Origin: a virus
Taxonomy: Duplodnaviria > Caudoviricetes
Virus record (IMG/VR): IMGVR_UViG_3300014204_000113
Coordinates: 32,001-96,000 of that record
Direction: 5' to 3' (one strand)
DNA length: 64,000 nucleotides
Made by a program: the position numbers and the translations under genes. Position 1 is the stretch's first letter, and each line of letters begins with the position of its first letter. Of this stretch, positions 14 to 22,293 are shown piece after piece. The notes beneath the pieces are model-generated. The model had not been told where the DNA came from. It was given only the letters and a program-made list of their open reading frames with translations, and ran no database searches.

Positions 14-42
14 TTGACAAGCCAACCATAAAAATTTAAGAT
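14..42 (+). promoter_or_regulatory. sigma70-type promoter of the ubiquitin-like operon
   Basis: TTGACA-17nt-TAAGAT followed by AAGGAGG RBS before ATG 66. Confidence 0.7.
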
Positions 43-65: not shown

Positions 66-1385
66 ATGTGGTTCATGCTTGACAATCACCTTGACGCAGA
101 AAAAATCTTGACCAAGGCTTTAATACCCACTCTGCTTCACACAATCACCACCCCAAGAGAAATCAAAGGGTTGGCTTTCCCGGAAGAAGAAAAAGACAAG
201 GTGCTCAAACTTCTGAAATTGGAAGAAAAAACTTGGGCGACGGTTAGAACCAACGATGACAATATTCTCCTTATGGAAGCACAAGGAAGGGTCGTCAAAA
301 TTGGCGGTCATCTTCAAACTTGGGATGAATTTTCTGGAGTTTTAGAAGAATACGCAGAATTGCTAAATGTTAAAATAGTGGTTTCAAATCCACATGTGAA
401 TCAAATTATAGGAAAAGGAGTAACTTTAGAACCAGAGGCAGAAGAAGGAACTTTGTTTATAAAATTCTATGCCTCCCCTGAAAAAACCAAAGCAAAATCA
501 TACAAAGAAGTTTTCGGTTTTAAATTAGGAACAAGTCAAAGCGATGGAGTAGAGCCTTCCGGTCAAGGACAACCAATTATTGACCCTTCTTCTGAAACCA
601 CCATCGCAGAAGTAATTGGTGACAGCCTTTATGTTCTATTCGATTTGCCTCATAATGACGGTTTGAAAAACAGCCAAGAAATTATGCGACAAATCATGGA
701 ACAATATTCTCTTCTGCAAAAGTCGCCAGAAGAATTGAAAAAATGGCGAGAAGAAGCGAAAGAAAGAGAAGCGACCAAAACAAAAACTGCCTATGTTAAG
801 GAGTGTTCAAAAAGATTAAAAGCAGTAAAGAATGAACTGATAGAGGATATTGAAGGAAATGAAAACGAACTAAACGCATTAGGGCAAAGAATTACTGAAT
901 TGGTGAGACAAATTGATGAGAAGAAGAAACAACTCTTCGGTTTTGACGACCTTGGAGATAGGGAAGAAAGATTTTCTCAAGAATATGATAAGTTGTTAGG
1001 ATTGCCTCATGTCAAGAAAGTTTTGGTTGAAGAGGGCAAGGTTAAAGTTTTCACCAATACTATCTTTCTTGAAAGTGATGGCAAGGTCTATGAAATGGGG
1101 GATTATCGCATTGACATTCCTACACAAGACACCAATTTAAAAATCGCCAATCTGAGGATGGAAGAGTTGACTGGGCAAACATATTTCCACCATCCTCATG
1201 TTTCTGGAAATAAAGATGGCGCAACTCCTTGTTTGGGGAACATTTCAGAAGGTGTTATGCGTCTAATTGGTGCATATGAATTTTCAGTAGTGGCACAAAT
1301 TCTCATTGAATATCTACATAGCAATAGATATCAAGACGAATTGACAACTTACTGGAAGCCAATAAAGAAAGCAAAAAGGGCGTAA
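66..1385 (+). CDS. Coiled-coil protein with C-terminal prokaryotic E2 (ubiquitin-conjugating-like) domain
   Basis: HHPHV...PCLGN motif typical of UBC-fold catalytic region; long coiled coil; first gene of operon with JAB, E1 and Ubl genes. Confidence 0.7.
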   Translation: MWFMLDNHLDAEKILTKALIPTLLHTITTPREIKGLAFPEEEKDKVLKLLKLEEKTWATVRTNDDNILLMEAQGRVVKIGGHLQTWDEFSGVLEEYAELLNVKIVVSNPHVNQIIGKGVTLEPEAEEGTLFIKFYASPEKTKAKSYKEVFGFKLGTSQSDGVEPSGQGQPIIDPSSETTIAEVIGDSLYVLFDLPHNDGLKNSQEIMRQIMEQYSLLQKSPEELKKWREEAKEREATKTKTAYVKECSKRLKAVKNELIEDIEGNENELNALGQRITELVRQIDEKKKQLFGFDDLGDREERFSQEYDKLLGLPHVKKVLVEEGKVKVFTNTIFLESDGKVYEMGDYRIDIPTQDTNLKIANLRMEELTGQTYFHHPHVSGNKDGATPCLGNISEGVMRLIGAYEFSVVAQILIEYLHSNRYQDELTTYWKPIKKAKRA

Positions 1386-1417: not shown

Positions 1418-2242
1418 ATGAAAATTGAATCGGTAGTTCCAATCATTGCCATAACCCCAGACGCCAAGGCAAAATTAGATGCCTATATCGGCATCTGCAA
1501 AGAAGAAATTAGTGGTTTGGGTGTTGTAAGGAGATTGCCACAATGGAAATTCCTTATTGAAGACATCATTCTCTTTTCCCAAGAAGTGACGGCAGGAACG
1601 ACAAACCTTGATGAAGAAACCCTTCACCAATTTTTGACCGAAGCTGTGGAACAAAATTTGGACCCATCGGTTTTAAAATTGTGGTGGCATAGCCACGTCA
1701 ACGGGTCTTGCTTTTGGTCTGGAATTGACACTGGGACTATTAACAAGGCGTTATTAGGTGACGATTGGATGTTATCTATTGTAGGCAATAAAAAAGGCGA
1801 ATACAAATGCCGTCTTGACACCTACGATCCAGTCCGCATCGCCTTAGATGAATTATCCTTGCAGTTGCAGCAAACAACTGATGTCGGCCTTTGGAAGCAA
1901 TTGAAGGCCGAAGTTAAAGAAAAGGTGAGAAAAAAGAAATATACCACATATCAAGGTGGTGGTGGAATTTGGGAAAAAGGAAAGGTTTGGGATAAAAAGA
2001 ATTATAAGTGGGCGTGGCCGGATGAAATTGATGAGACCGATGAAAACGACCAACCCATCCTTCCCAAACATTCTTCAAAGAATTCTTGCGGGGAATGCAA
2101 GGATTTTCTTGAAGGAAAAAAAACTTGCAAACAAAACTTTGCCAGTGGAAAATTTATGGCTGCTTGCAGACTATTTGAACCTATCCAAATAGGCGAAAGT
2201 GAAGAAACAAAAGAACAAGACTTGCAAGTGGGGATGGTTTAA
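1418..2242 (+). CDS. JAB/MPN+ metallo-isopeptidase (prokaryotic JAB)
   Basis: EISG...WWHSH-x7-S-x2-D JAMM motif; C-terminal Cys cluster. Confidence 0.85.
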   Translation: MKIESVVPIIAITPDAKAKLDAYIGICKEEISGLGVVRRLPQWKFLIEDIILFSQEVTAGTTNLDEETLHQFLTEAVEQNLDPSVLKLWWHSHVNGSCFWSGIDTGTINKALLGDDWMLSIVGNKKGEYKCRLDTYDPVRIALDELSLQLQQTTDVGLWKQLKAEVKEKVRKKKYTTYQGGGGIWEKGKVWDKKNYKWAWPDEIDETDENDQPILPKHSSKNSCGECKDFLEGKKTCKQNFASGKFMAACRLFEPIQIGESEETKEQDLQVGMV

Positions 2243-2904
2243 TGGTAAATCAAGAACCCGATTTTTGGAGGCAGTTTGACATTCTTCGGCCTACCGACTT
2301 AGAATTCCCTGTTCATATGGGAGGTTGTGGAGGTATCGGATCGCCCACTGCTTTGGCTATGGCGAAAATGGGGTGTAAAGATATGACCTTACATGACCAT
2401 GACACTGTGGAAAACCACAATTTACCCAATCAGATTTACCGATTGACAGACGTGGGAATGTTCAAGGTGGAAAGTTTGGCCAAAACCATTGAAGACTTCA
2501 CTGGTGTAATACCAAAAACTTCCCTCGAAAAGATAACTGCCGATTCAAAATTGGTCGGGTTAGTAGTGTCTGGGGTTGATTCTATGGCAGCTAGGAAAGA
2601 AATTTGGCAAGCCATCAGATATAAAACGACAATCCCTTTGTATGTGGATGCCAGAATGGGGGCGGAAGTTTGTCGCATCTATTCCATCAGGCCGACTAAT
2701 CCCATTGATGTAGCGATGTATGAAGGGACGTTGTATGATGATGCAGAAGCCCAAGAATTGCCTTGCACGGGCAGAAGCATTATCTACAATGTATTTATGA
2801 TCGCGGCATTGATTTGCAGTCAAATCAAGAAATTTGCTCGTGGACAAGAGTTCAATAAAGAAGTTATCTTTGATTTGGTTACATTGATGTGTTTGACTGA
2901 GTGA
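2242..2904 (+). CDS. ThiF/MoeB family E1-like ubiquitin-activating enzyme
   Basis: GCGGIGS nucleotide-binding loop, DHDTVENHNLPNQ, K-V, VDS-R, DARM, C-terminal ELPC cysteine; TAATG coupling to JAB gene. Confidence 0.9.
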   Translation: MVNQEPDFWRQFDILRPTDLEFPVHMGGCGGIGSPTALAMAKMGCKDMTLHDHDTVENHNLPNQIYRLTDVGMFKVESLAKTIEDFTGVIPKTSLEKITADSKLVGLVVSGVDSMAARKEIWQAIRYKTTIPLYVDARMGAEVCRIYSIRPTNPIDVAMYEGTLYDDAEAQELPCTGRSIIYNVFMIAALICSQIKKFARGQEFNKEVIFDLVTLMCLTE

Positions 2905-2967: not shown

Positions 2968-3153
2968 ATGTTTATCAAGGTGGTGTGGAAGGGGAAAGTA
3001 ACCGAAGTTATCCTTCCCCAAAATGGGACAACGGGAGATGCGTTGAAAGCGGCCCAAATCCCATCAAGTCAAGTAACTGGAATAACCGTAACCGGAGTTC
3101 GCTGCTGCGCTGATACCCAATTGAGACCTGACGACGCGGTTTACGCAACTTAA
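2968..3153 (+). CDS. Ubiquitin-like (beta-grasp) protein lacking C-terminal GG
   Basis: Paralogous to 3189-3395 (MFIKV...GxTxGDALxxA...DTQL) but ends VYAT. Confidence 0.65.
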   Translation: MFIKVVWKGKVTEVILPQNGTTGDALKAAQIPSSQVTGITVTGVRCCADTQLRPDDAVYAT

Positions 3154-3188: not shown

Positions 3189-3395
3189 ATGTTCGTTAAA
3201 GTGGCAAAGTTGGGCGCGAAAGTGGAAGAAGTGAATCTGGCTACCGGGGCCACCGTGGGCGAAGCCCTGAATGTGGCGGGCGTCACCGGGGACAACATGG
3301 AGATGAAGTTCAACGGGATGGTGGTTCAGAAGGACACCCAACTCCATGCGGATGGCGTTTTGACCCTCGTAGGCCAGATCAAGGGCGGCGCATAA
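3189..3395 (+). CDS. Ubiquitin-like modifier (ThiS/MoaD-like fold) ending in GG-A
   Basis: 68 aa beta-grasp pattern, C-terminus IKGGA; strong RBS; GC-rich codon usage. Confidence 0.85.
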   Translation: MFVKVAKLGAKVEEVNLATGATVGEALNVAGVTGDNMEMKFNGMVVQKDTQLHADGVLTLVGQIKGGA

Positions 3396-3407: not shown

Positions 3408-3447
3408 CGGCAGCCTTGTGATGTTTGCAAGGCTGCCGAACCTTTTT
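3408..3447 (+). terminator. Rho-independent terminator
   Basis: 11-bp stem CGGCAGCCTTG/CAAGGCTGCCG followed by T-run. Confidence 0.8.
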
Positions 3448-3518: not shown

Positions 3519-4631
3519 TCAGACAGCTTTTAGAACCAAGTTCAAAGACTCCATCCCGAGTCTTAAAATATTAATCGCGGCATTGTGATCACGATCAATA
3601 ACTAAATTACAATGAGGGCAAGAATGAGTTCTAACAGACAACTCTTTATCAACCAAGTTATAACATCCAGAACACATCTTGCTGGTGTTTCTTGGATTTA
3701 CGAAGATTGTTTGTCTACCAGCATATTCTGCTTTGTATTTAACAAAATTCATAAATTGATTCCAAGCAACATTACTTATGGATTTTCTAATTCCTTTAAA
3801 GGTAGTTTGTTGCATACTTTTAATATCAAGTTTTTCAAAAACTATTATTTGATTTTCATTTATGATTCTTCTGCTGAGTTTATGTGCAAAATCTGTTCTT
3901 TTGTTTGTGATTTTAGAATAAATTTTAGCAACAATTTTCTTGAGTTTATTTCTTTTTCTAGAACATTTTTTCGCATTAGAAAATTTACTTTGATATCTTG
4001 CAAGTTTCTGTTCAGATTCTTTGAAAAATCTAGGATTAGGAATCTTCTCGCCATCAGAGAAAGTAGCAAAAGAAACAAGACCCACATCAATACCAATAGG
4101 TTTCTCAATATTTGGCAAAATATTCGTTTCAACTTCACAACTAAAACATGCAAACCACTTGTTTGTAGAATCTCTTCTGATAGTGAGAGTTTTAATCTTG
4201 CCCTCAATATTCCTATGTTGTTTGATTCTAACAGCGCCTATTTTAGACATCTTCAAAAACTTATCTTTAATCTTAAAGCCGCCTTGAGTAAATGTGAAAC
4301 TATTATACCTATCATAACCTTGAAATCTAGGATAACCGGGTTTATCGCCTTTCTTAACTCGTCTAAAGAAAGATTTAAAAGCTTTATCAAGTCTATTTTG
4401 TGCATCTCTAAGGCAATGAATATGAATATTTTCAAATTCAGGTTTTTCTTTTTTCCATTGAGGCAAAAGATTATAAGTATCATAAAGACTAAAACTTTTC
4501 TTTTCTTCTTCCCAGCTTTTCTTTCTAGTTTCAAGCGTTTTGTTGTAAATCCAGCGACAAGAATCAAGATAGGCTTGCAAAGATTTTTCTTGTTTACTAG
4601 TAGGATAAATCCTGAATTTAAAAGTTTTCAT
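3519..4631 (-). CDS. tnpB: TnpB RNA-guided endonuclease (IS200/IS605 family), no tnpA
   Basis: MKTFKFRIYPT HTH start, GYPRF, RuvC GIDVG / VFEKL / DRDHNAAINI, CSGC..CPHC zinc finger; start placed at ATG 4631. Confidence 0.93.
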   Translation of the reverse strand: MKTFKFRIYPTSKQEKSLQAYLDSCRWIYNKTLETRKKSWEEEKKSFSLYDTYNLLPQWKKEKPEFENIHIHCLRDAQNRLDKAFKSFFRRVKKGDKPGYPRFQGYDRYNSFTFTQGGFKIKDKFLKMSKIGAVRIKQHRNIEGKIKTLTIRRDSTNKWFACFSCEVETNILPNIEKPIGIDVGLVSFATFSDGEKIPNPRFFKESEQKLARYQSKFSNAKKCSRKRNKLKKIVAKIYSKITNKRTDFAHKLSRRIINENQIIVFEKLDIKSMQQTTFKGIRKSISNVAWNQFMNFVKYKAEYAGRQTIFVNPRNTSKMCSGCYNLVDKELSVRTHSCPHCNLVIDRDHNAAINILRLGMESLNLVLKAV

Positions 4632-4643
4632 GCTCACATCTAG

Positions 4644-4694
4644 ATTATAACATATGGAAAAAGACAATGCAAGCTAGTAGTTCAAATTTTTGTA
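4644..4694 (-). promoter_or_regulatory. Phage-type promoter driving tnpB
   Basis: Minus strand TACAAAAATTTGAACT-N6-TTGCAT-17-TATAAT; same upstream element at 13434 and 46464. Confidence 0.7.
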
Positions 4695-4733: not shown

Positions 4734-4762
4734 TTGACAAGGTGATTTTAATGATTTAATAT
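4734..4762 (+). promoter_or_regulatory. sigma70-type promoter
   Basis: TTGACA-17-TAATAT upstream of AAGGAGG and ATG 4794. Confidence 0.65.
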
Positions 4763-4793: not shown

Positions 4794-5984
4794 ATGGAAC
4801 CAAAACCCGGCACCAAAGTAAAGTTATTAAAAACAAGTCGATTCTATAATCAAGCGCCTGATGAAATTGGAATAATTGTTGAAAGTGTATATGTTGATGA
4901 CCCTGATACTGATTGGTGCAAAGTACAATTTCCAAATAAAACAGACGCATATCGTTTCAGAGGAGAAGGAATAGACTTGGAATTAGCTGAAAAATGGACT
5001 TATAAAAAAGTTGGTGAATTAAAACCAAAAGATTTGGAAGATGAACAACCGACTTCTTGTGTATATAAGGATGGAATAGTCTTATTGTTACCAAAGAAGT
5101 TTTATGAACTATTTGAAGAAAAACAAGTTGAAATTACCGGACAAATAATTTCTTCTCATTGGGGGTGGCCAGCTAATGGGAAATTCCGTTTCATAAAAGA
5201 AGGTTGGCGTGGTTATTGGTATAATAAAGAAAAAGAATTTCTTGACGACCTTTTAAAAGCAATTGCCATCGCTAATGAAGAACCTTTTACTGAAATAAAA
5301 GAAGAAAACACATTGGAAAAAGCAATAATGGAAAAAGCAAAACAAGAACAGGAAGAAATTGATTTAAAAGAATCAAGGAACAGGTATGCAAAAGAATGTA
5401 CAAAAAGATTAAAAAACAAGAGACAAGAATATGAAAAAAGAATTAAAGAATATGAAGAAGAAACAAAAGAAATTTCTCGGCGCTTAGTTGAATTGACTAG
5501 GAATATTGATGAAAATAAAAGGATGGTTTTTGGTTTAAACGATCAAAAAGACCAACTTGAAAGATATAAAGAAGAATATGACAAGTTATCAGAACTGCCC
5601 CATGTTAGGAAAGTTTTGGTAAAAAATGAGAAAATAACAGTATTCACCGACACAATATATTTATCTTACGAAAATGAAACCTATGAATTAGGTGAATATC
5701 AAATAAATTTTGAAGGACAAGTTAGAATAATTAACGAAAGACCTATATTTAACCCAACCCATGGCACTAATGGACAATGGTTTCATCATCCCCATGTTTT
5801 TGAAAAAGATGGAAGCAATACTTGTTTGGGAAATATTACAGCAGGAATTCGTGAATTAGTAGGAAAATATGAATATGCAATAGCCACTGCAATTCTGATT
5901 GATTTTTTACATACTTGCAAATATCCTCATTATTTACAAAGGAATTGGAAGCCAATGGAGAAAAAGGAGGCATTATGGGCCTAA
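4794..5984 (+). CDS. Coiled-coil + E2-like protein, paralogue of 66-1385
   Basis: Shares YxKECxKRLK, EYDKL..LPHV.KVLV, HHPHV..CLGNI with ORF 66-1385; different N-terminus. Confidence 0.7.
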   Translation: MEPKPGTKVKLLKTSRFYNQAPDEIGIIVESVYVDDPDTDWCKVQFPNKTDAYRFRGEGIDLELAEKWTYKKVGELKPKDLEDEQPTSCVYKDGIVLLLPKKFYELFEEKQVEITGQIISSHWGWPANGKFRFIKEGWRGYWYNKEKEFLDDLLKAIAIANEEPFTEIKEENTLEKAIMEKAKQEQEEIDLKESRNRYAKECTKRLKNKRQEYEKRIKEYEEETKEISRRLVELTRNIDENKRMVFGLNDQKDQLERYKEEYDKLSELPHVRKVLVKNEKITVFTDTIYLSYENETYELGEYQINFEGQVRIINERPIFNPTHGTNGQWFHHPHVFEKDGSNTCLGNITAGIRELVGKYEYAIATAILIDFLHTCKYPHYLQRNWKPMEKKEALWA

Positions 5985-6469
5985 TGGAATTGATCGCAGA
6001 AGGATTAGATGTTTCTGGAAGTTATTTTGATTGGAATAGTTTGCCTGTAGTTGAAAGAAAAGTAGTTTTGGTTGAACCAGAAAAATTCATTCATATGACA
6101 AACAGGGAAATGAAGTCAATTTTGAACAATTCTCTTGTAGAAAAAGTAGAAGAGAACAATTCATGCTATGGAATCGTTGCCCACATAAAGCCATTCACCA
6201 TCAAATATGCTGCCTATTTTGGAAAAGAACCAATGGAAATGAATAATGGTTGCAGAATTTTACTGAGAACAAGAGGAAAAGGTCCAATGGTAAAATTTTA
6301 TCATTATAGATATCCAGAAAGAATTGGTCATCATTATAATGTAAGGACAAATGGGGGTGTTTGTTTGAGAAATCTTGAAAAACCAATTTCTAAACTGCTC
6401 AAAGCAAAAGAATACGCGGTAGCACTTAGTTTGTTAATTGAATTTATCCAAGTATTTAATGGAGCATAA
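5975..6469 (+). CDS. Divergent E2-like protein
   Basis: HHYNV..GGVCLRN and KEYAVALSLLIEF tail shared with other E2-like ORFs; RBS AAGGAGG before ATG 5975. Confidence 0.5.
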   Translation: MGLMELIAEGLDVSGSYFDWNSLPVVERKVVLVEPEKFIHMTNREMKSILNNSLVEKVEENNSCYGIVAHIKPFTIKYAAYFGKEPMEMNNGCRILLRTRGKGPMVKFYHYRYPERIGHHYNVRTNGGVCLRNLEKPISKLLKAKEYAVALSLLIEFIQVFNGA

Positions 6470-6499
6470 ATCAACCAACTAAATAAGGAGGAACAAAAA

Positions 6500-6949
6500 A
6501 TGCCAAGGTATCGAGTAACGGAAAAGATTTATCGCGATTTGGAAGTGAAGCAATACGGCATCCAAGTGTTTGACGTGGAGGCTGATAACGAAGGTGAAGC
6601 TAAAGAGATGTCTTCAGATGAAGGCGAATTGGTCTCTGAAACTTGGGAACCTGTAGCACAAGAAAAAATGGAAGAAGCCATAAAAGAAGCTGATGAAGAT
6701 GATTATCATGACTATGACGAAAACATCAGCGTCGTCCAAATTGGTGGTTCTTCCACAGACCATATGTTTGTCAAAGTGGTCTACAAAGGCAAAGTGGATG
6801 AAGTGATGATTTCTCGCGGTGGCGTCATCAGGGAAGCGTTAGGTGCCGCGAATATCTCTTCAAGAGATGTCATCAACCTCACTGTCACCGGCATCGCTTG
6901 TTGTCTGGATACTGAATTGCGCCCCGATGACATGGTTTATGTGGACTGA
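6500..6949 (+). CDS. Acidic domain fused to C-terminal ubiquitin-like domain
   Basis: C-terminal 61 aa closely match ORF 2968-3153 (MFVKVVYKGKV...CCLDTELRPDD). Confidence 0.7.
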   Translation: MPRYRVTEKIYRDLEVKQYGIQVFDVEADNEGEAKEMSSDEGELVSETWEPVAQEKMEEAIKEADEDDYHDYDENISVVQIGGSSTDHMFVKVVYKGKVDEVMISRGGVIREALGAANISSRDVINLTVTGIACCLDTELRPDDMVYVD

Positions 6950-6951
6950 TT

Positions 6952-6984
6952 TAATGGGGTCGTATTAAGCGACCCCATTATTTA
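6952..6984 (+). terminator. Rho-independent terminator
   Basis: 11-bp stem TAATGGGGTCG/CGACCCCATTA + TTT. Confidence 0.75.
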
Positions 6985-7016
6985 ACTAAAAGGAGGAAAA
7001 ATATGATATTGAAGTT

Positions 7017-8276
7017 TTGAAAGTTGTTCTAGAAGAAGAAATGCAATCAACATTCGCAATCAAAGGTGTCCGCAAAGATAAGAATTTTAAACCTAACTAT
7101 AAGACAATTGATAAAATAAAATCAAAATATGATTCTGTCTATCTTGAAATATCAGATTACAACATTAACAAAACCCAACTAAATACAGGATACACTAGCA
7201 GAAGTTTTTTGTCTAATGGCTCTAACATTTTCTATATGGCACCAACTATGGCACCAGTGGACTATAATCCTCAATTTCCTAACTACCTTGAACATCCAGA
7301 AACTTGTTTTGAATATTATCGCCAAAGAGGAATAACCCATCTGATAGGCGAAGAAAAATACATGGGAAGCAGAGCAGAATTGCTCATATTTAAAGACAAA
7401 GAAAAAGCAAATATGATGGGATATGAACATCCAGTAATTGTCAATTCTCGCTCTGGTTATGAATTTTTTGATGATGAAGAAACTAAAAATAAAATTCACG
7501 ATGATATAAAAGATAAAATGAAGGGAATATGTGACTTCATCATATTAGATGCTGAAATCATGCCCTGGAATTATAAGGCTGATAAATTAATAATAAAAGA
7601 ATTTCTTTCACCTATAGAATCAACTTTGCTATCAAGAAAATATACTGATAAAGGTTCATTAGAAAATGCATGGAAGGCTTTGCTTTCGCTTGGAAGGTTT
7701 TCAAAAGAATCACCAATTGAAATAAGACCTTTTCATATATTGGCAAAAGGCAGTGTCGTTGAAAAGAAAGGAAAAAGAATATTTTCAAATGTTGAAGTTG
7801 GTTTTTTAAAAAATCATATTCAACATATGACAGAAATCGAATCTCTTACAAAGAATGGAATTATTTTTAAACCTTGTAAATGGCATTGTTTTGATTTGAA
7901 TGACCAATATCTAAGAAACGAATCTATTAAAAAATGGGAAGAATTTTGCCAAATAGGTGAAGGTTTTGTTTATAAACCTTATGATTTCTTAAATTATGCG
8001 CCCAATTACCACCTGATTCAACCTGCTATGAAAGTCAGAGGCAAAGAATATTTGAGGATAATTTATGGAATTGACTATCTTGAACCTGAATGTTTTCAAA
8101 GACTTACCCATAGACACACCATAAGAAAGAGAATTTTGGCCATCCAAGAGCAAGAATTGGCAATAAAAATCTTGCTTTCCTTCCTGAAAGGGAATAGAAT
8201 AATGAAAGAAAAATTTGTGGCAGCTTTCATAGGAATGGAATCAGTAAACATGGCGAATATTGACGCTACGTTATAA
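7017..8276 (+). CDS. Stand-alone Pnkp-type RNA ligase/adenylyltransferase domain
   Basis: APTMAP, LEHP, EEKYMGSRA, LDAEIMPW, GEGFVYKP, QPAMKVRGKEYLRIIYG motifs of the bacterial Pnkp C-terminal module. Confidence 0.85.
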   Translation: MKVVLEEEMQSTFAIKGVRKDKNFKPNYKTIDKIKSKYDSVYLEISDYNINKTQLNTGYTSRSFLSNGSNIFYMAPTMAPVDYNPQFPNYLEHPETCFEYYRQRGITHLIGEEKYMGSRAELLIFKDKEKANMMGYEHPVIVNSRSGYEFFDDEETKNKIHDDIKDKMKGICDFIILDAEIMPWNYKADKLIIKEFLSPIESTLLSRKYTDKGSLENAWKALLSLGRFSKESPIEIRPFHILAKGSVVEKKGKRIFSNVEVGFLKNHIQHMTEIESLTKNGIIFKPCKWHCFDLNDQYLRNESIKKWEEFCQIGEGFVYKPYDFLNYAPNYHLIQPAMKVRGKEYLRIIYGIDYLEPECFQRLTHRHTIRKRILAIQEQELAIKILLSFLKGNRIMKEKFVAAFIGMESVNMANIDATL

Positions 8277-8342
8277 TTATGCTAATAGTAACCATTATCA
8301 TAATAGCTTTACTTTTATCTATATTCCATAGTGAGTGAATAA

Positions 8343-8810
8343 ATGGCGTCGATTAAAAAATTAATGAAAATAGACAGAGAGATTTCAAATTGTATTGATG
8401 ATAGAGAAATCAATTTTATTGAAGCAGAGAATATAATCTCTACAATTTGTGAGAAACTTAATTTACCAAAGATGACAATTAAATTTTGTTTTTATGAAAA
8501 GAAAGCTGATTGGTTTTTGAGAAAATTATGCAGATTTTTCAACAAAGAAAAACTTTGTGATTTGTATGAAGAAAAAATAGGAAAAAGAAGATTAAGAGTT
8601 GGAGAAGCATATCATGAAATAAATTATATAGTATTATATTCTTCTGGTCAAAATATTAGTACACTATTGCATGAGATTGCTCACTTATTGCCAAATGGAG
8701 TTAATCATGGGAAGAATTGGATAAAGAATTTTAAAGAAGTAGTGAAAATATATAACAAGGAAATTTCAATATGCGCCTGTCGCCAAGCGGACATGGCAGA
8801 AGACTTCTAA
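8343..8810 (+). CDS. SprT-like zinc metallopeptidase-domain protein
   Basis: LLHEIAH...HGKNW motif. Confidence 0.6.
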   Translation: MASIKKLMKIDREISNCIDDREINFIEAENIISTICEKLNLPKMTIKFCFYEKKADWFLRKLCRFFNKEKLCDLYEEKIGKRRLRVGEAYHEINYIVLYSSGQNISTLLHEIAHLLPNGVNHGKNWIKNFKEVVKIYNKEISICACRQADMAEDF

Positions 8811-8855
8811 TCTTCCGGGGAACCATCGGAGGTTCGAATCCTCCCAGGCGTGCCA
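8773..8855 (+). tRNA. tRNA-Arg(TCT) with extended variable loop
   Basis: GCGCCTG/CAGGCGT acceptor, GAAGA-CTTCTAA-TCTTC anticodon arm, GGAGG-TTCGAAT-CCTCC T arm, encoded CCA. Confidence 0.85.
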
Positions 8856-8888
8856 TAATATAAATTCTCAAAGTTAAAGGATAAACGA

Positions 8889-9443
8889 ATGCACGAATTT
8901 GGATCGGGTCCAATCTTTGATGTTGGTGTTTATATCGGAAGATTTAATCCTATTCATAAAGGACATCAAAGAACAATTGAACAGATGATGTTTAATCACA
9001 CTATCAACCATTCTTTATTAATGATTGGTTCTCCAAATGTAAATCTTTCTTTAAGAAATTTATTTACATATAAAGAGCGTAGAGATTTTATAAAAGCAAT
9101 ATATCCAAATATTAGAATTGCTCCATTGCCAGATCAAATATCAGATGAAGATTGGTTTTCTTCACTAATAGATATAATTGAAATATCTTTTCCATTTTAT
9201 CATAATGTGAACATATATTGCGGAGATATTAAAGATTTAGAACACTTTAATTATCATAACAAAGCAACCGTAAAAATTATAGATAGATATGAAGAGCAAG
9301 TATATTCTGCTACAGAAGTAAGGCGTTGTATTATGATGGGTGAAATTGAACCACTAACTAAACTGATACATCTTGATTTATTATATCCAGTTTATGAGTT
9401 AGGAAGGAAAAGACTTGAAGAAATGTTAAGAGGAGAAAAATAA
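8889..9443 (+). CDS. Nicotinamide-nucleotide adenylyltransferase (NadM-like)
   Basis: GRFNPIHKGH (HxGH), GS..N, ER, SATEVR. Confidence 0.85.
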   Translation: MHEFGSGPIFDVGVYIGRFNPIHKGHQRTIEQMMFNHTINHSLLMIGSPNVNLSLRNLFTYKERRDFIKAIYPNIRIAPLPDQISDEDWFSSLIDIIEISFPFYHNVNIYCGDIKDLEHFNYHNKATVKIIDRYEEQVYSATEVRRCIMMGEIEPLTKLIHLDLLYPVYELGRKRLEEMLRGEK

Positions 9444-10273
9444 TGGGCAAAGAACTTAAAGCAGAAAACTTAACTATTAGCGTCCCCAATGTGGGTTGTG
9501 ATAAAAACTGTCCTTATTGTGTAAGCAAAATGACTGGATATATAAAATCAGATATTGTTAAAATGAATATGAATATAAAAAAGGTTATAAATATTTCACA
9601 AATAGCTGAAGTTACTTCTGTCTTATTTACTGGTAAAGGAGAGCCAACTTTAAATTTTGAAGCAATAGAACAGCTTTCTTTCAATTTTAAAAATCTATTC
9701 CCATTAGAATTACAAACAAATGGGGTCTTTTTATCTAAAAATCTAAATAAAGTTGATTCTTTATTAATTCAAGGGTTTGATATAATAGCGATATCAATAG
9801 ATACAGAATTACAATTAGAAAATTATCAAAAGCTATTTAAAAAAATAATTGATTTAAATATGATTTGTAGATTAACCATCAACATCACAAATAAACTTGA
9901 TAAAGAATTCACATTTGAAAAGACGATAAAATATTGTACTGAAAATGGAATACAACAATTAACTTTAAGAAGAGTAGCAATCCCCCAAAAACCATTAGAT
10001 AAAAAAGTGGTTGGTTGGATCAAAGAAAACGCTCCTCTTGATTTATATGAAAATGTAATGAGGGATGTTTTTCTAATTATAAAAGAAAAAGGCAATTTAA
10101 TCAGAATATTAAATCAAGGGACAAAAATATATGATATTGATGGCGTTTCTTTTACTTACTCTGATTATTGTTTACAAGAAAAAGACAATGGAAATAATAT
10201 TCGATCATTAGTCTTTCAGGAAGATGGACATTTATACACTTCTTGGGCTTCTAAGGCGTCAATTTTATTTTAA
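9443..10273 (+). CDS. Radical SAM protein
   Basis: CDKNCPYC cluster motif, TGKGEP, LQTNG. Confidence 0.85.
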   Translation: MGKELKAENLTISVPNVGCDKNCPYCVSKMTGYIKSDIVKMNMNIKKVINISQIAEVTSVLFTGKGEPTLNFEAIEQLSFNFKNLFPLELQTNGVFLSKNLNKVDSLLIQGFDIIAISIDTELQLENYQKLFKKIIDLNMICRLTINITNKLDKEFTFEKTIKYCTENGIQQLTLRRVAIPQKPLDKKVVGWIKENAPLDLYENVMRDVFLIIKEKGNLIRILNQGTKIYDIDGVSFTYSDYCLQEKDNGNNIRSLVFQEDGHLYTSWASKASILF

Positions 10274-10285
10274 AGGAGAAAAATA

Positions 10286-11668
10286 ATGATAAATCAAATC
10301 TTAAATACAGACTCATACAAACTTTCTCATTTTCTTCAATATCCACCAAACACAGAACAAGTTTCTTGTTACGTAGAATCTAGAGGAGGAAGGTTTAATA
10401 GAACCTTATTTTTTGGCTTACAAATATTTCTAAAAGAATATATGACAAAATTTATAACTAAAGAAGATATTGAACTTGCTAATCTTTTTAGTTCTGAACA
10501 TGGAGAACCTTTCAACATGAAGGGTTTTTTGGAATTACAAGAGTTGGGTTATTGGCCTGTACAAATTCAAGCAATTCCAGAAGGAACAATTATTCAAACC
10601 AATAATGTGTTGGTTCAGATAACCAACACCGACCCTAGATTCTATTGGCTACCATCTTTTCTTGAAACAATGTTATTGAGAGGAGTTTGGTATCCAACTA
10701 CTGTGTGTACTTTATCTTGGATGTGTAAACAATTAATCAAAGATTTCATGTTAAAAACTTCTGATAATCCAGACGATATCAACTTCAAATTACATGATTT
10801 TGGAGCAAGAGGGGCATCTTCATTAGAAACTGCATCAATAGGTGGTTGTTCCCATTTGGTTAATTTCATGGGCACAGATACTATGGTTGGTATTTTAGCA
10901 GCACAAAAATATTACAATGCCAAAATGGTTGGTTTTTCAATTCCAGCCGCAGAGCACTCTACCATCACTTCTTGGGGTGGAGTGGAAGGTGAACTGGATT
11001 CTTACAAAAACATGTTAAATCAATTTGCCAAACCTGGAAAAATAGTAGCAGTAGTGTCTGATTCGTACGATATATTCAAAGCTATTAAAGAATTATGGGG
11101 AGGACATTTAAAAAATAAAATAATTGACTCAAAAGCCACTATAGTGATTCGACCTGATTCTGGAAATCCAGTAACAGTAGTTAGAGATGTAATCAAAGAA
11201 CTGATGAATGTTTTTGGATACGAAACTAACACTAAAAATTATGATGTTCTTCCACCATATATCAGAGTAATACAAGGAGACGGAATTGAATATGATTCTA
11301 TCTTTGATATTTTAACTGAGATGACTAATTGTAAATTATCAACAGATAATATATCTTTTGGTATGGGTGGTGCTTTGCTTCAAAATTTAGATAGAGATTT
11401 TTTAAAATTTGCAATGAAAACATCTGCTATTAAAATAAATGGTAATTGGATTGATGTTTATAAAGACCCTATAACAGATACTACTAAAAGGTCAAAAAAG
11501 GGTAGATTGGCTTTATGTAAGAATAATATCAATCAGTTTATCACAATTCGTGAAAATGAAGCAATTGCTTTTGGCGCAGAAAATCTGCTAAAAGATGTTT
11601 ATCTTAATGGGAAAATTCTTCGTGAATTTGAGTTTGAAGAAGTCAGAAAAAACGCTTCTGGAAATTAA
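10286..11668 (+). CDS. nadV: Nicotinamide phosphoribosyltransferase (Nampt)
   Basis: TDSYKLSH, LHDFGARG, SIPAAEHS, VVSDSYD, IRPDSG, GMGGALLQ, SKKGRL. Confidence 0.95.
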   Translation: MINQILNTDSYKLSHFLQYPPNTEQVSCYVESRGGRFNRTLFFGLQIFLKEYMTKFITKEDIELANLFSSEHGEPFNMKGFLELQELGYWPVQIQAIPEGTIIQTNNVLVQITNTDPRFYWLPSFLETMLLRGVWYPTTVCTLSWMCKQLIKDFMLKTSDNPDDINFKLHDFGARGASSLETASIGGCSHLVNFMGTDTMVGILAAQKYYNAKMVGFSIPAAEHSTITSWGGVEGELDSYKNMLNQFAKPGKIVAVVSDSYDIFKAIKELWGGHLKNKIIDSKATIVIRPDSGNPVTVVRDVIKELMNVFGYETNTKNYDVLPPYIRVIQGDGIEYDSIFDILTEMTNCKLSTDNISFGMGGALLQNLDRDFLKFAMKTSAIKINGNWIDVYKDPITDTTKRSKKGRLALCKNNINQFITIRENEAIAFGAENLLKDVYLNGKILREFEFEEVRKNASGN

Positions 11669-11697
11669 AAATCGCAACTTAAAAGGAGGAACAAATC

Positions 11698-12174
11698 ATG
11701 ATGGTATTCATAATTTTGGCAAGTACGCTTATTTTGACTGTTTCTTGGTTGTATTTCTTAAAAAAGTATGGAGAAGGAACATATAACGAAACAAACGTCA
11801 CAGATATTCTATTTGGTTTTTCTGTTGTAGGATGGATAATTTCAACATTTACTTTGGTCACATTGCTTATTGTCTATACACACCATGCAACAAACTTGGG
11901 CACCATTCGCCAAGGATATTCTGTAGTTAAAGTCCAACAAGATAGGTTAAATAGGTTAAGAACCGATTTGACGCTTGTAAATGATTCTATCAAACAAGGA
12001 AATGTGGCTTTAGTCAACTCTGACAGCCCTATTAAAAGTTTAATAGACCAAATTGCTTTGGCTGAAACTTCTGTAGCAGAAGCCAATCTTAAAATTGCTA
12101 ATGCAGAAGTTAGTATCGCTCAACGTAAAGCTGGACCAGGATATTTTATTGTTTCTTGGTTTGGAGACAAATAA
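11698..12174 (+). CDS. Membrane protein (2 TM + coiled coil)
   Basis: Hydrophobic segments; AGGAGG RBS. Confidence 0.6.
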   Translation: MMVFIILASTLILTVSWLYFLKKYGEGTYNETNVTDILFGFSVVGWIISTFTLVTLLIVYTHHATNLGTIRQGYSVVKVQQDRLNRLRTDLTLVNDSIKQGNVALVNSDSPIKSLIDQIALAETSVAEANLKIANAEVSIAQRKAGPGYFIVSWFGDK

Positions 12175-12322
12175 CTTATGGAGGAAATTCAATCAATTTA
12201 TATTGGTAATGGAAAATTTATTCAATCCACTTCTAATCATCAATTTCTAACTGAATTTGGTTATAAAGAATTGAAAGATTTATCACCAGAAGAAATTTCT
12301 AATATCAAACGAAGAGAGGAAA

Positions 12323-12817
12323 ATGACTATGAGAAAATTTAAGAAATTCATTTGTTTTATCACTGGCATAACTTTAGTCAGATATATAAAAAGAAGGATT
12401 GAATTAAAGAAAGAATTGGAATTGATTTCAACCTTTCCTAAAGTTAAAAGCTTTCTTTTCAAAAAGAAAAATTTAATTGTTAAAACAATGCCGATTAAGA
12501 TGGACGGACACTTATTGGGTGATTTTGAAATAATCATAAAAACAAAAAATATATATGATGTTTTAAATATTCAAAATTTAACTGGGAAAAGAAGAATAAG
12601 AGACTCAATATATCACCATCCACATATTTGGTCTAGTTGGATATTAAATACAGAACCAACCTTTTGTCTAGGGAATATTTCAGTAGAAGTAAAATGGTTA
12701 ATTCAAGAAAAAGAATATTCCGCAGTCGTTCTTCTTCTAATCCAGTTTTTAGAAGAAGGATATGGTTGGGAAGAATGGGAAAAAGAAGAATGTCTATCTC
12801 ATTGGCCTGAAATATAA
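12323..12817 (+). CDS. E2-like protein (paralogue 4)
   Basis: HHPHIW...FCLGNI...KEYSAVVLLLIQFL. Confidence 0.6.
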   Translation: MTMRKFKKFICFITGITLVRYIKRRIELKKELELISTFPKVKSFLFKKKNLIVKTMPIKMDGHLLGDFEIIIKTKNIYDVLNIQNLTGKRRIRDSIYHHPHIWSSWILNTEPTFCLGNISVEVKWLIQEKEYSAVVLLLIQFLEEGYGWEEWEKEECLSHWPEI

Positions 12818-12829
12818 AGGAGGAATAAA

Positions 12830-13405
12830 ATGTATAACTATTATGATTTTACAAATGATTGTACGATTGGATATTGGTCAGCAACAGAAAACTTTTTTAA
12901 ACCAGAACTAGTTAAAAAAATCGAACCTATTAAAATTGAATTGTCTGCAAATGATTTAGAAATCATAAGAAGTTTTTCTGAAATTCAAGAAATTTCTCTT
13001 CTTAAAGATAAATTATCAATACTAACCAACATAATAAATATGTCAAACCATGAATTAGGACAATATCAAATTGAAATTAATAAAACTTTTGAAAAATATG
13101 ATGCCATAAGCGCGATATACATCTGCAATCAAACAAGAACTGTAGATGTAGACAAGTTTCATGACACTAATGGAAGTTTTGTTTTCCACCATCCTCATAT
13201 CTGGGCAAGAGGAGATAATGTTAAAAACACGGAAATTTGTTTTGGTAATATAAAAGAATACATTGAAAAAATGTTGATAGCAAAAGAACCTATCGTATTA
13301 ATAAGCACAATTTTGGAATATCTCAAGAATGGCTATGGATGGCGTCATAACAAAAAAGAATACTTGAAGTGTTGGCCTGAAGTAAATTCTTCGCCTCGTC
13401 TATAA
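12830..13405 (+). CDS. E2-like protein (paralogue 5)
   Basis: HHPHIW...ICFGNI...ILEYL; shares GYGW...WPE tail with 12323-12817. Confidence 0.6.
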   Translation: MYNYYDFTNDCTIGYWSATENFFKPELVKKIEPIKIELSANDLEIIRSFSEIQEISLLKDKLSILTNIINMSNHELGQYQIEINKTFEKYDAISAIYICNQTRTVDVDKFHDTNGSFVFHHPHIWARGDNVKNTEICFGNIKEYIEKMLIAKEPIVLISTILEYLKNGYGWRHNKKEYLKCWPEVNSSPRL

Positions 13406-21873: not shown

Positions 21874-22293
21874 GTTTTCATTGTATTGAATACAACGAAC
21901 ATTTTGGTCCCAGTACTAATGAACACCTGTTTTTGAGGCTTCTGTTGTATTGGCAAAACTTGCAAGTTGTTTATTTTTAAAGAAAATTAGACACAAGACC
22001 AGCCACAACACTAGTCAACAGACATTTTCATTAGTACCTATATCATGACACAATTTACTTTCTTCTAATTGAAGACCTGTATTATTCATTCCATTCATAA
22101 CACAGGATACTATCTTCAATTATTCAGAAAGTAAATAAGTTTTTCACTTTGTGAAAAACGTAAACATACTAATTTTCAAAAAATTGGTTTCAAAAGGTGA
22201 TTATTTTTTAAAACAAACAACTCTTTTGAAAATTAATTAACTAATAATTTGTTTTTTAAAAAAACAAACCTCTTTGCTACCATCCGATAGGAT

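What the first reader, a model, noticed from the sequence alone, without database searches (positions are those of the whole stretch)
4794..13405. Expansion to five E2-like paralogues with variable N-termini
Seen: 66-1385, 4794-5984, 5975-6469, 12323-12817 and 12830-13405 share HHPH(V/I)..C(L/F)GNI..(K/Y)EY..L.(E/Q/D)(F/Y)L (degenerate in 5975); two have a long coiled coil, and N-termini are unrelated. Only one E1 and one GG-ended Ubl are present. Inference: E2s double as substrate-specifying modules (no E3 seen), allowing several targets.
Basis: partly seen in the sequence, partly recalled or inferred. Interest (0 to 1): 0.7.

Follow-up and report, generated by a model that had tools for sequence, protein, structure and literature searches.

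The report
Phage ubiquitin-like system with five E2s
A complete 188-kb uncultured phage has one activating enzyme, one trimming protease and one ubiquitin-like tag but five intact, diverged ubiquitin-carrier (E2-type) genes, the largest such set among about 60 related phage gene clusters, which suggests the virus tags several different proteins, though no tagging has been tested.

Summary
All five ORFs share a C-terminal domain of about 140 aa with xHPH(V/I), 6-12 residues, then C(L/F)GN.

AlphaFold models of two of them (pLDDT 92-93) match eukaryotic E2 enzymes. A profile alignment places HPH on the E2 HPN motif and the Cys on the catalytic Cys.

The family is large (1,387 representative clusters) and matches no significant model in Pfam, NCBIfam, PADLOC or PHROGs.

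Elsewhere it sits in a four-gene cassette, long E2-JAB-E1-Ubl(GG). Of 58 phage loci that hold this E2, 49 have one copy, 7 two, 1 three, and only the sister phage five. Candidate-phyla (CPR) bacterial genomes usually have one.

The whole genome has one E1, one JAB and one GG-ended Ubl. It has no RING, HECT or U-box match. A sixth E2 is truncated outside the window.

E2a is the standard cassette E2 and carries the family's common N-domain. E2b keeps the coiled coil and core but has a private N-domain. E2c, E2d and E2e are short.

All five are under purifying selection, and the four extras evolve faster.

E3-free target choice by the E2s is plausible, with Bil as precedent, but untested.

This scan already reported this operon, its sister phage, and E2 expansions of another E2 family in other phages.

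The parts
14..42 (+). Promoter-like site (TTGACA-17-TAAGAT) ahead of E2a
   Evidence: Consensus scan only.
66..1385 (+). E2a, 439 aa: conserved N-domain (about 1-215), coiled coil (221-294), UBC-like core (297-432) with HHPHV, 9 residues, CLGN (Cys389). This is the canonical cassette E2.
   Evidence: AF2 pLDDT 92. Core matches E2S, UbcH10 and Ube2K at Z 6.9 over about 115 aa. The N-domain is shared with 42 direct and 107 linked relatives. Against the sister phage: 94% identity, dN/dS 0.065.
1418..2242 (+). JAB/JAMM peptidase, 274 aa, motif HSHVNGSCFWSGID (HxH-x7-S-xx-D)
   Evidence: Motif read from the sequence. It is the conserved neighbour of E2 and E1 in nearly all of the 80 phage loci and in 6 of 8 bacterial loci with an E1. 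No Pfam hit.
2242..2904 (+). E1, 220 aa: minimal ThiF-type adenylating enzyme with an invariant Cys175 (PCT). It is the only E1 in the genome.
   Evidence: Pfam ThiF 2.4e-17, 63 bits. Alignment A8. Genome-wide count.
2968..3153 (+). Ubl-like protein, 61 aa, with no C-terminal Gly-Gly (ends ...VYAT)
   Evidence: Translation. Paralogue of the C-terminal half of ORF 6500-6949 and of the GG-ended Ubl.
3189..3395 (+). Ubl, 68 aa, ending ...IKGGA. It is the only GG-bearing tag; one residue would need trimming, probably by the JAB.
   Evidence: Translation. 98.5% identical in the sister phage, dN/dS 0.02.
3408..3438 (+). Strong intrinsic-terminator-like hairpin (14-bp stem) that closes the E2a-JAB-E1-Ubl-Ubl unit
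3519..4667 (-). TnpB-type gene between the Ubl and E2b. The spacing in the sister phage leaves no room for it at this site.
   Evidence: ORF translation. The E2a-to-E2b distance is 4,650 bp here and 3,305 bp in the sister.
4734..4762 (+). Promoter-like site (TTGACA-17-TAATAT) ahead of E2b
   Evidence: Consensus scan only.
4794..5984 (+). E2b, 396 aa: private N-domain (about 1-178), coiled coil, UBC-like core with HHPHV, 8 residues, CLGN (Cys344)
   Evidence: 41% identical to E2a over coiled coil and core, with no similarity before that. The N-domain is found only in the sister orthologue. In an 8-row clade with E2a, SH-aLRT 93. dN/dS 0.15, and 0.22 in the N-domain.
5975..6469 (+). E2c, 164 aa: fast-evolving short E2 with HHYNV, 6 residues, CLRN (the sister has NHDNV, 6 residues, CLGN); Cys kept. 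Its start overlaps the end of E2b, with AAGGAGG 5 nt upstream.
   Evidence: Long branch in the tree.
6500..6949 (+). 149-aa protein: acidic N-half plus a C-terminal non-GG Ubl domain. It closes the E2b-E2c unit.
   Evidence: Conserved at the same position in the sister phage.
12323..12817 (+). E2d, 164 aa: short 'HHPHIW / GYGW' subfamily, Cys115
   Evidence: AF2 pLDDT 93. Foldseek top hits are UbcH7 and UbcH8, probability 0.96. VIA-align Z 7.1 to E2S over 124 aa. In the 11-row short clade, SH-aLRT 99. dN/dS 0.22. 12 of 25 substitutions lie in the active-site zone, p=0.0016.
12830..13405 (+). E2e, 191 aa: short GYGW subfamily, HHPHI, 12 residues, CFGN, with a strong RBS 12 nt after E2d
   Evidence: dN/dS 0.36.

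Best explanation
The five ORFs are real ubiquitin-conjugating (UBC-fold) E2-type carrier proteins. They belong to a large, uncurated prokaryotic and phage family that keeps the classical eukaryote-like active-site order, H-P-[H/N] upstream of the catalytic Cys.

The ancestral unit is a four-gene cassette: long E2 (N-domain, coiled coil, UBC core), JAB, minimal E1, and a GG-ended Ubl. E2a is that cassette's own E2. This phage lineage added further E2s:
- E2b is an E2a-like copy whose N-domain was exchanged at the start of the coiled coil.
- E2c is a fast-evolving short copy, translationally coupled to E2b.
- E2d and E2e, plus a sixth copy now truncated in this phage, belong to a separate short subfamily.

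Most likely mechanism (inferred, not shown). The JAB trims the terminal Ala from the Ubl. The single E1 adenylates the Ubl. The tag then passes, directly or through E1 Cys175, to the Cys of whichever E2 docks. Each E2 transfers it without an E3 to the proteins it binds. Binding would be through the N-domain and coiled coil for E2a and E2b, and through surfaces around the active site for the short ones. One tag would thus reach several host or rival-phage targets.

My odds: UBC fold and family membership about 0.9; all five charged by the one E1 about 0.65; distinct targets for each E2 about 0.5.
For: Fold:
- The E2d model has pLDDT 93. Foldseek's top hits are nearly all E2s, led by UbcH7 at probability 0.96.
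- An all-against-48,161-chain search puts E2S, UbcH10 and UbcH5 on top: Z 6.8-7.1, about 120 of 164 residues aligned.
- The separately modelled E2a core gives the same result.

Active site:
- A family profile against PDB sequences finds UbcH7 as its best hits. The E-value is only 0.25, but HPH aligns to HPN and the Cys to the catalytic Cys86.
- 3 of 88 relatives hit Pfam UQ_con at E about 3e-5 to 7e-5.
- The Cys and the P of HPH are invariant in 60 long members, and the flanking His residues are 90% or more conserved.

Synteny:
- E2-JAB-E1(-Ubl) is adjacent in most CPR and other bacterial loci.
- 58 of 80 phage loci found through the E1 hold this E2.

Expansion:
- Copies per phage locus are 1 in 49, 2 in 7, 3 in 1 and 5 only in the sister phage.
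- Nearly all CPR genomes searched have 1 copy.

Single supply line:
- The genome has one E1, one JAB and one GG-ended Ubl.
- In the sister phage the five E2 genes lie in one 7.8-kb cluster with them.

Functional genes:
- dN/dS against the sister is 0.065-0.36 for all five, and all five Cys are kept.
- Strong ribosome-binding sites precede E2c and E2e; E2d has a weaker one.

Modularity:
- The E2a/E2b homology boundary falls at the start of the coiled coil.
- 167 long E2s carry N-regions in 46 clusters.
- E2d's substitutions are concentrated from HPH to Cys+14.

E3-free precedent:
- Bil tags the phage central tail fibre specifically, using only E1, E2 and Ubl.
Against: - No biochemical step is shown. 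The phage and its host are uncultured.
- Structure matches are middling (Z about 7, Foldseek E about 0.05). The tool's own note says Z under 8 can reflect only a common arrangement, so the case rests on fold, motif register and synteny together.
- The window's own proteins do not reach any curated E2 model.
- Three of the five E2s have no obvious target-binding domain.
- E2a's N-domain is widely conserved, which fits a housekeeping role in the cassette (E1/JAB docking or oligomerisation) as well as it fits target choice.
- E2c has lost the Pro and second His of HPH, and the Gly after the Cys.
- One copy has been deleted in this phage without apparent harm, so single E2s are dispensable.
- The dN/dS values and the E2d active-site clustering come from a single pair of genomes.
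Confidence: 0.55

Rival explanations
1. The extra E2s are partners rather than independent target selectors. They would act like UEV/Mms2-type cofactors or chain-building E2s, forming heteromers with E2a or E2b (E2c with E2b, E2d with E2e) and tuning what the main E2 does.
For: - E2c has a degraded HPH motif and is translationally coupled to E2b.
- E2d and E2e are adjacent and lack target-binding domains.
- E2a and E2b share a homologous coiled coil that could pair.
- Some relatives are tandem double-domain proteins without the HPH...C motif.
Against: - All five keep the Cys in both phages, and E2d and E2e keep a perfect HHPH. Eukaryotic UEVs lack the catalytic Cys (established knowledge of the family).
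- The short subfamily also occurs on a contig with no long partner next to it (L020).
Confidence: 0.2
2. The extra E2s are counter-defence decoys. They would dock on, or be charged by, a host ubiquitin-like defence machine (Bil, CBASS Cap2 or Bub type) and divert or block it, rather than serving the phage's own E1.
For: - Bacterial Ubl-conjugation systems are anti-phage defences.
- The extra E2s are scattered, evolve faster and vary in number between sister phages, as counter-defence genes often do.
Against: - They belong to the same family as the phage's own cassette E2. That family is distinct from the BilB/Prok-E2_D type: no PF14460 match, and the His lies upstream rather than downstream of the Cys.
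- In the sister phage they sit in one cluster with the phage's E1 and Ubl.
- The host and its defences are unknown.
Confidence: 0.1
3. They are redundant duplicates drifting towards loss, with no division of labour.
For: - One copy is already truncated in this phage.
- Most related cassettes manage with one E2.
Against: - The paralogues are only 20-47% identical to each other, yet each is 82-94% identical to its orthologue, with dN/dS 0.07-0.36.
- They fall into at least three old lineages.
- E2b has a distinct N-domain that is conserved in the sister phage.
Confidence: 0.08
4. The shared domain is not a Ubl carrier at all, but another cysteine-dependent or purely structural domain that merely resembles the UBC/RWD fold.
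For: - Structural scores are moderate, and non-catalytic RWD domains score equally well.
- No curated E2 model matches the window's proteins.
Against: - The HP[H/N], 6-12 residues, Cys pattern aligns in register with the classical E2 active site.
- The gene is tightly linked to E1, JAB and a GG-ended Ubl in dozens of loci.
Confidence: 0.05

Closest known systems
BilABCD (Type I and II Bil) bacterial anti-phage Ubl-conjugation operons: classes 6d and 6c of Iyer, Burroughs and Aravind 2006 (PMC1779556); Chambers et al. bioRxiv 10.1101/2023.09.26.559546; Hor et al. bioRxiv 10.1101/2023.09.04.556158
   Same: - Four separate genes for Ubl, E2, JAB and E1.
- The Ubl has residues after the conserved Gly, which the JAB removes in Bil.
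- No E3, yet in Bil the tag goes to one specific protein.
- Sporadic, mobile distribution.
   Different: - The E2 here has the classical upstream HP[H/N] motif. BilB-type E2s lack it and use a His downstream of the Cys. PF14460 finds nothing in this genome.
- The E1 is a minimal 220-aa single adenylation domain, not the two-domain BilD.
- The standard E2 carries an N-domain plus a coiled coil of about 75 aa.
- The system is phage-borne and has five E2s instead of one.
Eukaryotic and archaeal classical UBC E2 enzymes (Pfam UQ_con PF00179, for example UbcH7/UBE2L3, UBE2S)
   Same: - Predicted fold, with an N-terminal helix, a beta-meander, the HPN-type loop, then the Cys just before helix 2.
- Motif register in the profile alignment.
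- Many E2s served by one E1, as in eukaryotes.
   Different: - Sequence similarity is below family thresholds.
- HPH replaces HPN.
- The C-terminal helices are shortened.
- No RING, HECT or U-box partner is present.
CBASS Cap2/Cap3 and 6A-type E1-E2(-JAB) fusion systems
   Same: - The E2 has the His upstream of the Cys, as in classical E2s.
- The E1 region gives weak matches to the PADLOC E1-E2 models and to NCBIfam 6A-MBL cap2_3.
- A JAB is present.
   Different: - The genes are unfused.
- A free beta-grasp Ubl is the tag, rather than a CD-NTase.
- The model matches cover only the adenylation domain and are far below the cut-offs.
E2 expansions in other uncultured phages noted by this scan (e1-5635245, e1-5348700, e1-5304791; Prok-E2_D-type E2s). 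These are AI notes, not publications.
   Same: One Ubl, one E1 and one JAB, with several to many diverged E2-like genes in a large phage.
   Different: Those use the Prok-E2_D (6d) family. This phage uses a different E2 family with the classical motif and a modular N-domain/coiled-coil architecture. I did not re-examine those loci.

Membership tests
UBC/E2 fold superfamily | N-terminal helix, four-stranded antiparallel beta-meander, then a loop carrying the active site, followed by helix 2 | tested here: met
   AF2 models of E2d (pLDDT 93) and E2a (pLDDT 92) show this order of elements. The best structural matches are E2 enzymes: Z 6.8-7.1 over 115-124 residues, Foldseek probability up to 0.96. 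The scores are moderate, and RWD domains score alike.
UBC/E2 fold superfamily | HPN-type motif about 8-12 residues upstream of a catalytic Cys | tested here: met
   xHPH(V/I), 6-12 residues, C(L/F)GN in four of the five; E2c has HHYN, 6 residues, C. The profile alignment to UbcH7 puts HPH on HPN and the Cys on Cys86, at E 0.25 only.
UBC/E2 fold superfamily | Cys forms a thioester with the Ubl after E1 activation | not testable with these tools
   This needs biochemistry.
Pfam UQ_con (PF00179) | Match to the family model above its gathering score | tested here: not met
   No hit for the five proteins or in the six-frame genome. Only 3 of 88 relatives give sub-threshold hits, best E 2.9e-5.
Prok-E2_D (PF14460) / BilB, operon class 6d | Match to PF14460; no His upstream of the Cys but a conserved His downstream | tested here: not met
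   No PF14460 match in the genome at E<=10, and none among the 88 relatives scanned. This family has the upstream HPH instead.
Bil-like four-gene Ubl conjugation cassette | Adjacent genes for Ubl with a C-terminal Gly, E2, JAB/JAMM peptidase and ThiF-type E1 | tested here: met
   E2a-JAB-E1-Ubl-Ubl(GGA) lie between a promoter-like site and a terminator. The same order recurs in most bacterial loci and in many phage loci.
Bil-like four-gene Ubl conjugation cassette | Anti-phage defence by tagging a phage structural protein | not testable with these tools
   No host or culture is available, and here the system is carried by a phage.
ThiF/E1 adenylating enzymes | Pfam ThiF match above cut-off, Gly-rich nucleotide loop, conserved Cys | tested here: met
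   PF00899 at 63.4 bits against a cut-off of 28.1. GxGGxGS and Cys175 are invariant in 8 homologues.
JAMM/MPN+ peptidase | HxH-x7-S-xx-D zinc-site motif | tested here: met
   HSHVNGSCFWSGID is read directly in ORF 1418-2242. No Pfam model matched, so this rests on the motif and on synteny.
CBASS Cap2 / 6A E1-E2 fusions | E2 and E1 (and often JAB) fused in one polypeptide, with a CD-NTase as the conjugated protein | tested here: not met
   E2, JAB and E1 are separate ORFs. The PADLOC E1-E2 models match only 60-90 residues of the E1. I did not search for a CD-NTase.

The most novel reading that the evidence does not exclude
A phage runs its own multi-E2, E3-free ubiquitin-like network. Modular E2s, with exchangeable N-domains on a coiled-coil stalk and fast-changing active-site rims in the short forms, would each aim the single tag at a different host-defence or rival-phage protein. 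That would be a viral counterpart of the eukaryotic division of labour among E2s and E3s, built from an E2 family with the classical HPN-type active site.
Probability: 0.35. Interest if true: 0.8.

Novelty: new variant of a known kind. Interest (0 to 1): 0.6.

Why it matters
Ubiquitin-like conjugation in prokaryotes is currently described as a bacterial defence (Bil, CBASS Cap2, Bub) with one E2 per system.

Here a virus carries the machinery, and it has several carrier enzymes from an unnamed E2 family whose active site looks more eukaryote-like than that of BilB.

If each E2 has its own targets, three things follow:
- E3-independent target choice can diversify by E2 duplication and domain swapping.
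- A compact set of five small proteins becomes available for mapping what a phage needs to tag.
- There is a new reference point for how the many-E2 layout of eukaryotes could arise.

In practice, the family (1,387 representative clusters, present in dozens of phages and in CPR bacteria) deserves a curated model, so that it stops being annotated as hypothetical.

Tried and rejected
- **Curated libraries.** Pfam, PADLOC, PHROGs and NCBIfam scans of the five proteins gave only coiled-coil noise.
- **Cultured-phage records.** megablast of the region and tblastn of E2a against 50,697 phage records found nothing.
- **Pattern scans of IMG/VR.** Scans with E2 alignments either failed for lack of a conserved stretch or found only the sister phage. 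Going through the E1 instead gave 80 loci.
- **E2a N-domain fold.** The whole-protein searches were swamped by the coiled coil and the E2 core. Foldseek gave only weak class-I glutamine-amidotransferase-like rows (probability 0.8, E 0.03). No catalytic Cys is conserved there, so I do not assign a fold.
- **E2b N-domain.** There is no relative in the ESM Atlas look-up, none among proteins of 93-298 aa, and no second copy in the genome.
- **ESM Atlas for the E2a N-domain.** No usable hit.
- **Metagenome scan with short-subfamily member P0015.** Nothing found.
- **My first N-terminal clustering** (113 of 124 in one cluster) included the coiled coil and overstated conservation. I replaced it with a clustering that leaves the coiled coil out.

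Full report
**Source.** The window is bases 32,001-96,000 of a 187,988-bp IMG/VR virus record with direct terminal repeats, rated complete. G+C is about 32%, and nearly all genes are on the + strand. A sister phage, IMGVR_UViG_3300029288_001872 (189,632 bp), shares the region at 82-98% protein identity.

**The observation.** I call the five ORFs E2a (66-1385), E2b (4794-5984), E2c (5975-6469), E2d (12323-12817) and E2e (12830-13405).
- They align over a C-terminal domain of about 140 aa, with HH, C, N and E invariant.
- Four carry HHPH(V/I), 8-12 residues, then C(L/F)GN. E2c reads HHYNV, 6 residues, CLRN.
- Its sister orthologue has NHDNV, 6 residues, CLGN, so His-x-Asn and the Cys persist.
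- A profile of the five finds 1,387 representative clusters at E<=1e-3 among 1.84 billion proteins. The domain is usually at the C-terminus of proteins of 300-480 aa.
- About 80% of the listed hits keep xHPHx, 5-13 residues, C(L/F)GN.

**Is it an E2?**
- No curated model matches the window's proteins.
- With an alignment of 28 short members, AlphaFold gives E2d a pLDDT of 93. The model has a long N-terminal helix, a beta-meander, and a loop carrying HPH and Cys115 just before helix 117-128, then two more helices.
- Foldseek's top rows are almost all E2s, led by UbcH7 at probability 0.96 and E 0.05.
- A Foldseek-independent scan of 48,161 chains ranks E2S, UbcH10 and UbcH5 first, at Z 6.8-7.1 with about 120 residues aligned. 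Non-catalytic RWD relatives rank among them.
- E2a, modelled with 60 long homologues (pLDDT 92), returns the same E2s for residues 296-438.
- The family profile's best PDB sequence hits are UbcH7. The E-value is only 0.25, but HPH falls on HPN and the Cys on catalytic Cys86.
- Three of 88 relatives give sub-threshold Pfam UQ_con hits.
- Each line is moderate on its own. Together with the synteny below, I put the UBC-fold carrier assignment at about 0.9.

**Context and the ancestral cassette.**
- E2a is followed by a JAMM peptidase whose HxH-x7-S-xx-D motif can be read directly. Next come a 220-aa ThiF-type E1 (Pfam 2.4e-17; invariant Cys175), a 61-aa Ubl without GG, and a 68-aa Ubl ending GGA.
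- A promoter-like site at 14-42 and a strong terminator at 3408-3438 bracket this unit. A second promoter-like site at 4734-4762 precedes E2b-E2c and the Ubl fusion.
- The order long E2-JAB-E1(-Ubl) recurs in most of the eight candidate-phyla (CPR: Saccharibacteria, Paceibacterota, Collierbacteria) and other bacterial loci examined. One of them, L014, instead shows two tandem long E2s at a contig end.
- In the two CPR loci whose neighbours I scanned, the cassette sits among housekeeping genes.
- It is rare in that group: 3 of 401 sampled genomes of the phylum, one copy each.
- Searching IMG/VR through the E1 gave 80 phage loci. Of these, 58 hold this E2 family within 10 kb: 49 with one copy, 7 with two, 1 with three, and only the sister phage with five.
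- Five is therefore the largest set seen in this comparison. The limit of 10 kb on each side means scattered copies elsewhere would be missed.
- A 15-kb metagenome contig (L020) carries three dispersed copies, two of them of the short type, so dispersal recurs.

**One supply line.**
- Across the whole genome there is one E1, one JAB and three beta-grasp ORFs, of which one ends in GG. There are five intact E2 domains and one remnant.
- No RING, HECT or U-box model matches.
- In the sister phage the genes form one cluster: E2a-JAB-E1-Ubl-Ubl-E2b-E2c-Ubl fusion, four small ORFs, then E2d-E2e.
- In this phage a TnpB gene (3519-4667, minus strand) lies between the Ubl and E2b.
- About 3.5 kb of extra DNA separates E2c from E2d, judged from the spacings. 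The ligase-like, SprT-like, NMNAT, radical-SAM and NAMPT genes lie in that interval.

**The paralogues are not equivalent.**
- E2a and E2b are 41% identical from the start of the coiled coil to the end (E2a 224-435). They are unrelated before that point.
- They share an 8-row clade with SH-aLRT 93.
- With the coiled coil left out, the N-regions of 167 long family members fall into 46 similarity clusters. One dominant cluster of 107 contains E2a, with 42 direct matches. E2b's N-region clusters only with its sister orthologue.
- E2b's N-region has no other relative that I could find.
- So E2a is the standard form, E2b is a domain-swapped derivative, and the N-region is a variable module across the family. 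Long E2s in phage loci range up to 1,690 aa.
- E2d, E2e and the sixth copy belong to a distinct short clade (11 rows, SH-aLRT 99). It is marked by HHPH(I/V)W and a C-terminal GYGW...W motif.
- E2c sits on a long branch. It starts inside the end of E2b, behind a strong AAGGAGG ribosome-binding site.

**Selection and turnover.**
- Against the sister phage, dN/dS values are: E1 0.03, Ubl(GG) 0.02, E2a 0.065, JAB 0.067, E2c 0.12, E2b 0.15 (0.22 in its N-domain), E2d 0.22 and E2e 0.36.
- All are constrained. The extra E2s have two to three times the dN of E2a.
- In E2d, 12 of 25 substitutions fall between HPH and Cys+14, against 5 expected (binomial p=0.0016). The other four show no such enrichment.
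- The sixth copy is intact in the sister (L008:2772-3266). In this phage (L007:3136-3513) a deletion of about 400 bp fuses its first ~66 codons to the tail of the next gene and removes HPH and the Cys.

**Interpretation.**
- The most economical reading is one tag and one E1 feeding several E2s that act without an E3.
- Bil is a direct precedent: its E1, E2 and Ubl alone tag the phage central tail fibre specifically.
- Compared with Bil, this cassette has the same gene content. Its E2 differs, with a classical upstream HP[H/N] motif instead of the downstream His of BilB/6d types, and no PF14460 match. It also has a minimal E1 and an N-domain/coiled-coil stalk on the E2.
- What the phage tags is unknown. 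Host defence proteins and proteins of competing phages are both reasonable. The latter fits the other anti-rival devices that this scan reported in the same genome, which I did not test.
- The main rival reading is that the short E2s are cofactors of the long ones. It is favoured by E2c's degenerate motif and its coupling to E2b, but weakened because every copy retains the Cys.

**Literature and earlier notes.**
- In the held library I found no paper describing this E2 family or a phage-borne multi-E2 Ubl system.
- The scan itself has already reported this operon (e1-5745259), the sister phage's copy (e1-5823457), and E2 expansions of the Prok-E2_D family in other large phages (e1-5635245, e1-5348700, e1-5304791).
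  - the fold and motif evidence for two of the paralogues;
  - the three-way split of the paralogues;
  - the E2a/E2b domain-swap boundary;
  - the copy-number census;
  - the selection figures;
  - the truncated sixth copy.

**Limits.**
- As a result, E1-E2 docking, expression, and the genomic context of most short-subfamily relatives could not be examined.

Noticed in passing
L007:3136-3513 (G000 22,135-22,512, about 9.9 kb before the window); sister copy L008:2772-3266: This is a sixth E2 gene of the short GYGW type. It is intact (164 aa) in the sister phage. Here a deletion of about 400 bp fuses its first ~66 codons in frame to the end of the next gene and removes HPH and the Cys. A TnpB gene lies a few hundred bp downstream in both phages.
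   Followed up: yes
window 3519-4667 (-): A TnpB-type gene sits between the Ubl(GGA) terminator and the E2b promoter. The E2a-to-E2b spacing is 1,345 bp shorter in the sister phage, so the cassette appears to be absent at this site there.
   Followed up: partly
window 7017-11668: A ligase-like gene, an SprT-like gene, NMNAT, a radical-SAM gene and NAMPT lie between the Ubl fusion and E2d. The E2c-to-E2d distance is 6.3 kb here and 2.8 kb in the sister, which has four small ORFs in that interval. This block therefore looks like an insertion or replacement inside the E2 cluster.
   Followed up: partly
window 66-710 (E2a residues 1-215): This N-domain is conserved across the family, with motifs VSNPHG, GQSDG and LY(V/I)LFDLPHG. 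It matches no Pfam family. Foldseek gives only weak class-I glutamine-amidotransferase-like rows (probability 0.8), and no conserved Cys is present. Its fold and role are unresolved.
   Followed up: partly
window 2968-3153 and 6500-6949: These are two Ubl-fold paralogues without a C-terminal Gly-Gly, both with a vicinal Cys-Cys. One is free; the other is fused behind an acidic domain of about 85 aa that itself ends ...VVQIGG. Both are conserved in the sister phage (97% and 88% identity).
   Followed up: no
proteins P0080, P0097, P0104, P0120, P0126, P0127 (about 645 aa): These relatives have two tandem copies of the E2-like domain in one protein and no recognisable HPH...C motif. They may be non-catalytic (RWD/UEV-like) derivatives of this family.
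   Followed up: no
L010, L013 (CPR bacterial MAG contigs): The four-gene cassette lies in bacterial chromosomes next to housekeeping genes (release factor, ribosomal protein S2, topoisomerase I, Nramp). It was found in only 3 of 401 sampled genomes of that phylum, a sporadic pattern like that of defence islands.
   Followed up: partly
window 11698-12174: A 158-aa ORF with two hydrophobic segments lies directly upstream of E2d, with a weak sub-threshold Pfam hit to a superinfection-immunity family. The sister phage has a 145-aa ORF at the same place; I did not check homology.
   Followed up: no
L020 (Ga0233425_10007498, 15.3 kb): This metagenome contig has three dispersed E2 genes of this family, two of the short GYGW type and one of 379 aa. 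They lie among a DNA ligase, an AAA_5 ATPase and a DUF2201 VWA/metallopeptidase gene. No E1 or JAB is present in the 15 kb.
   Followed up: partly
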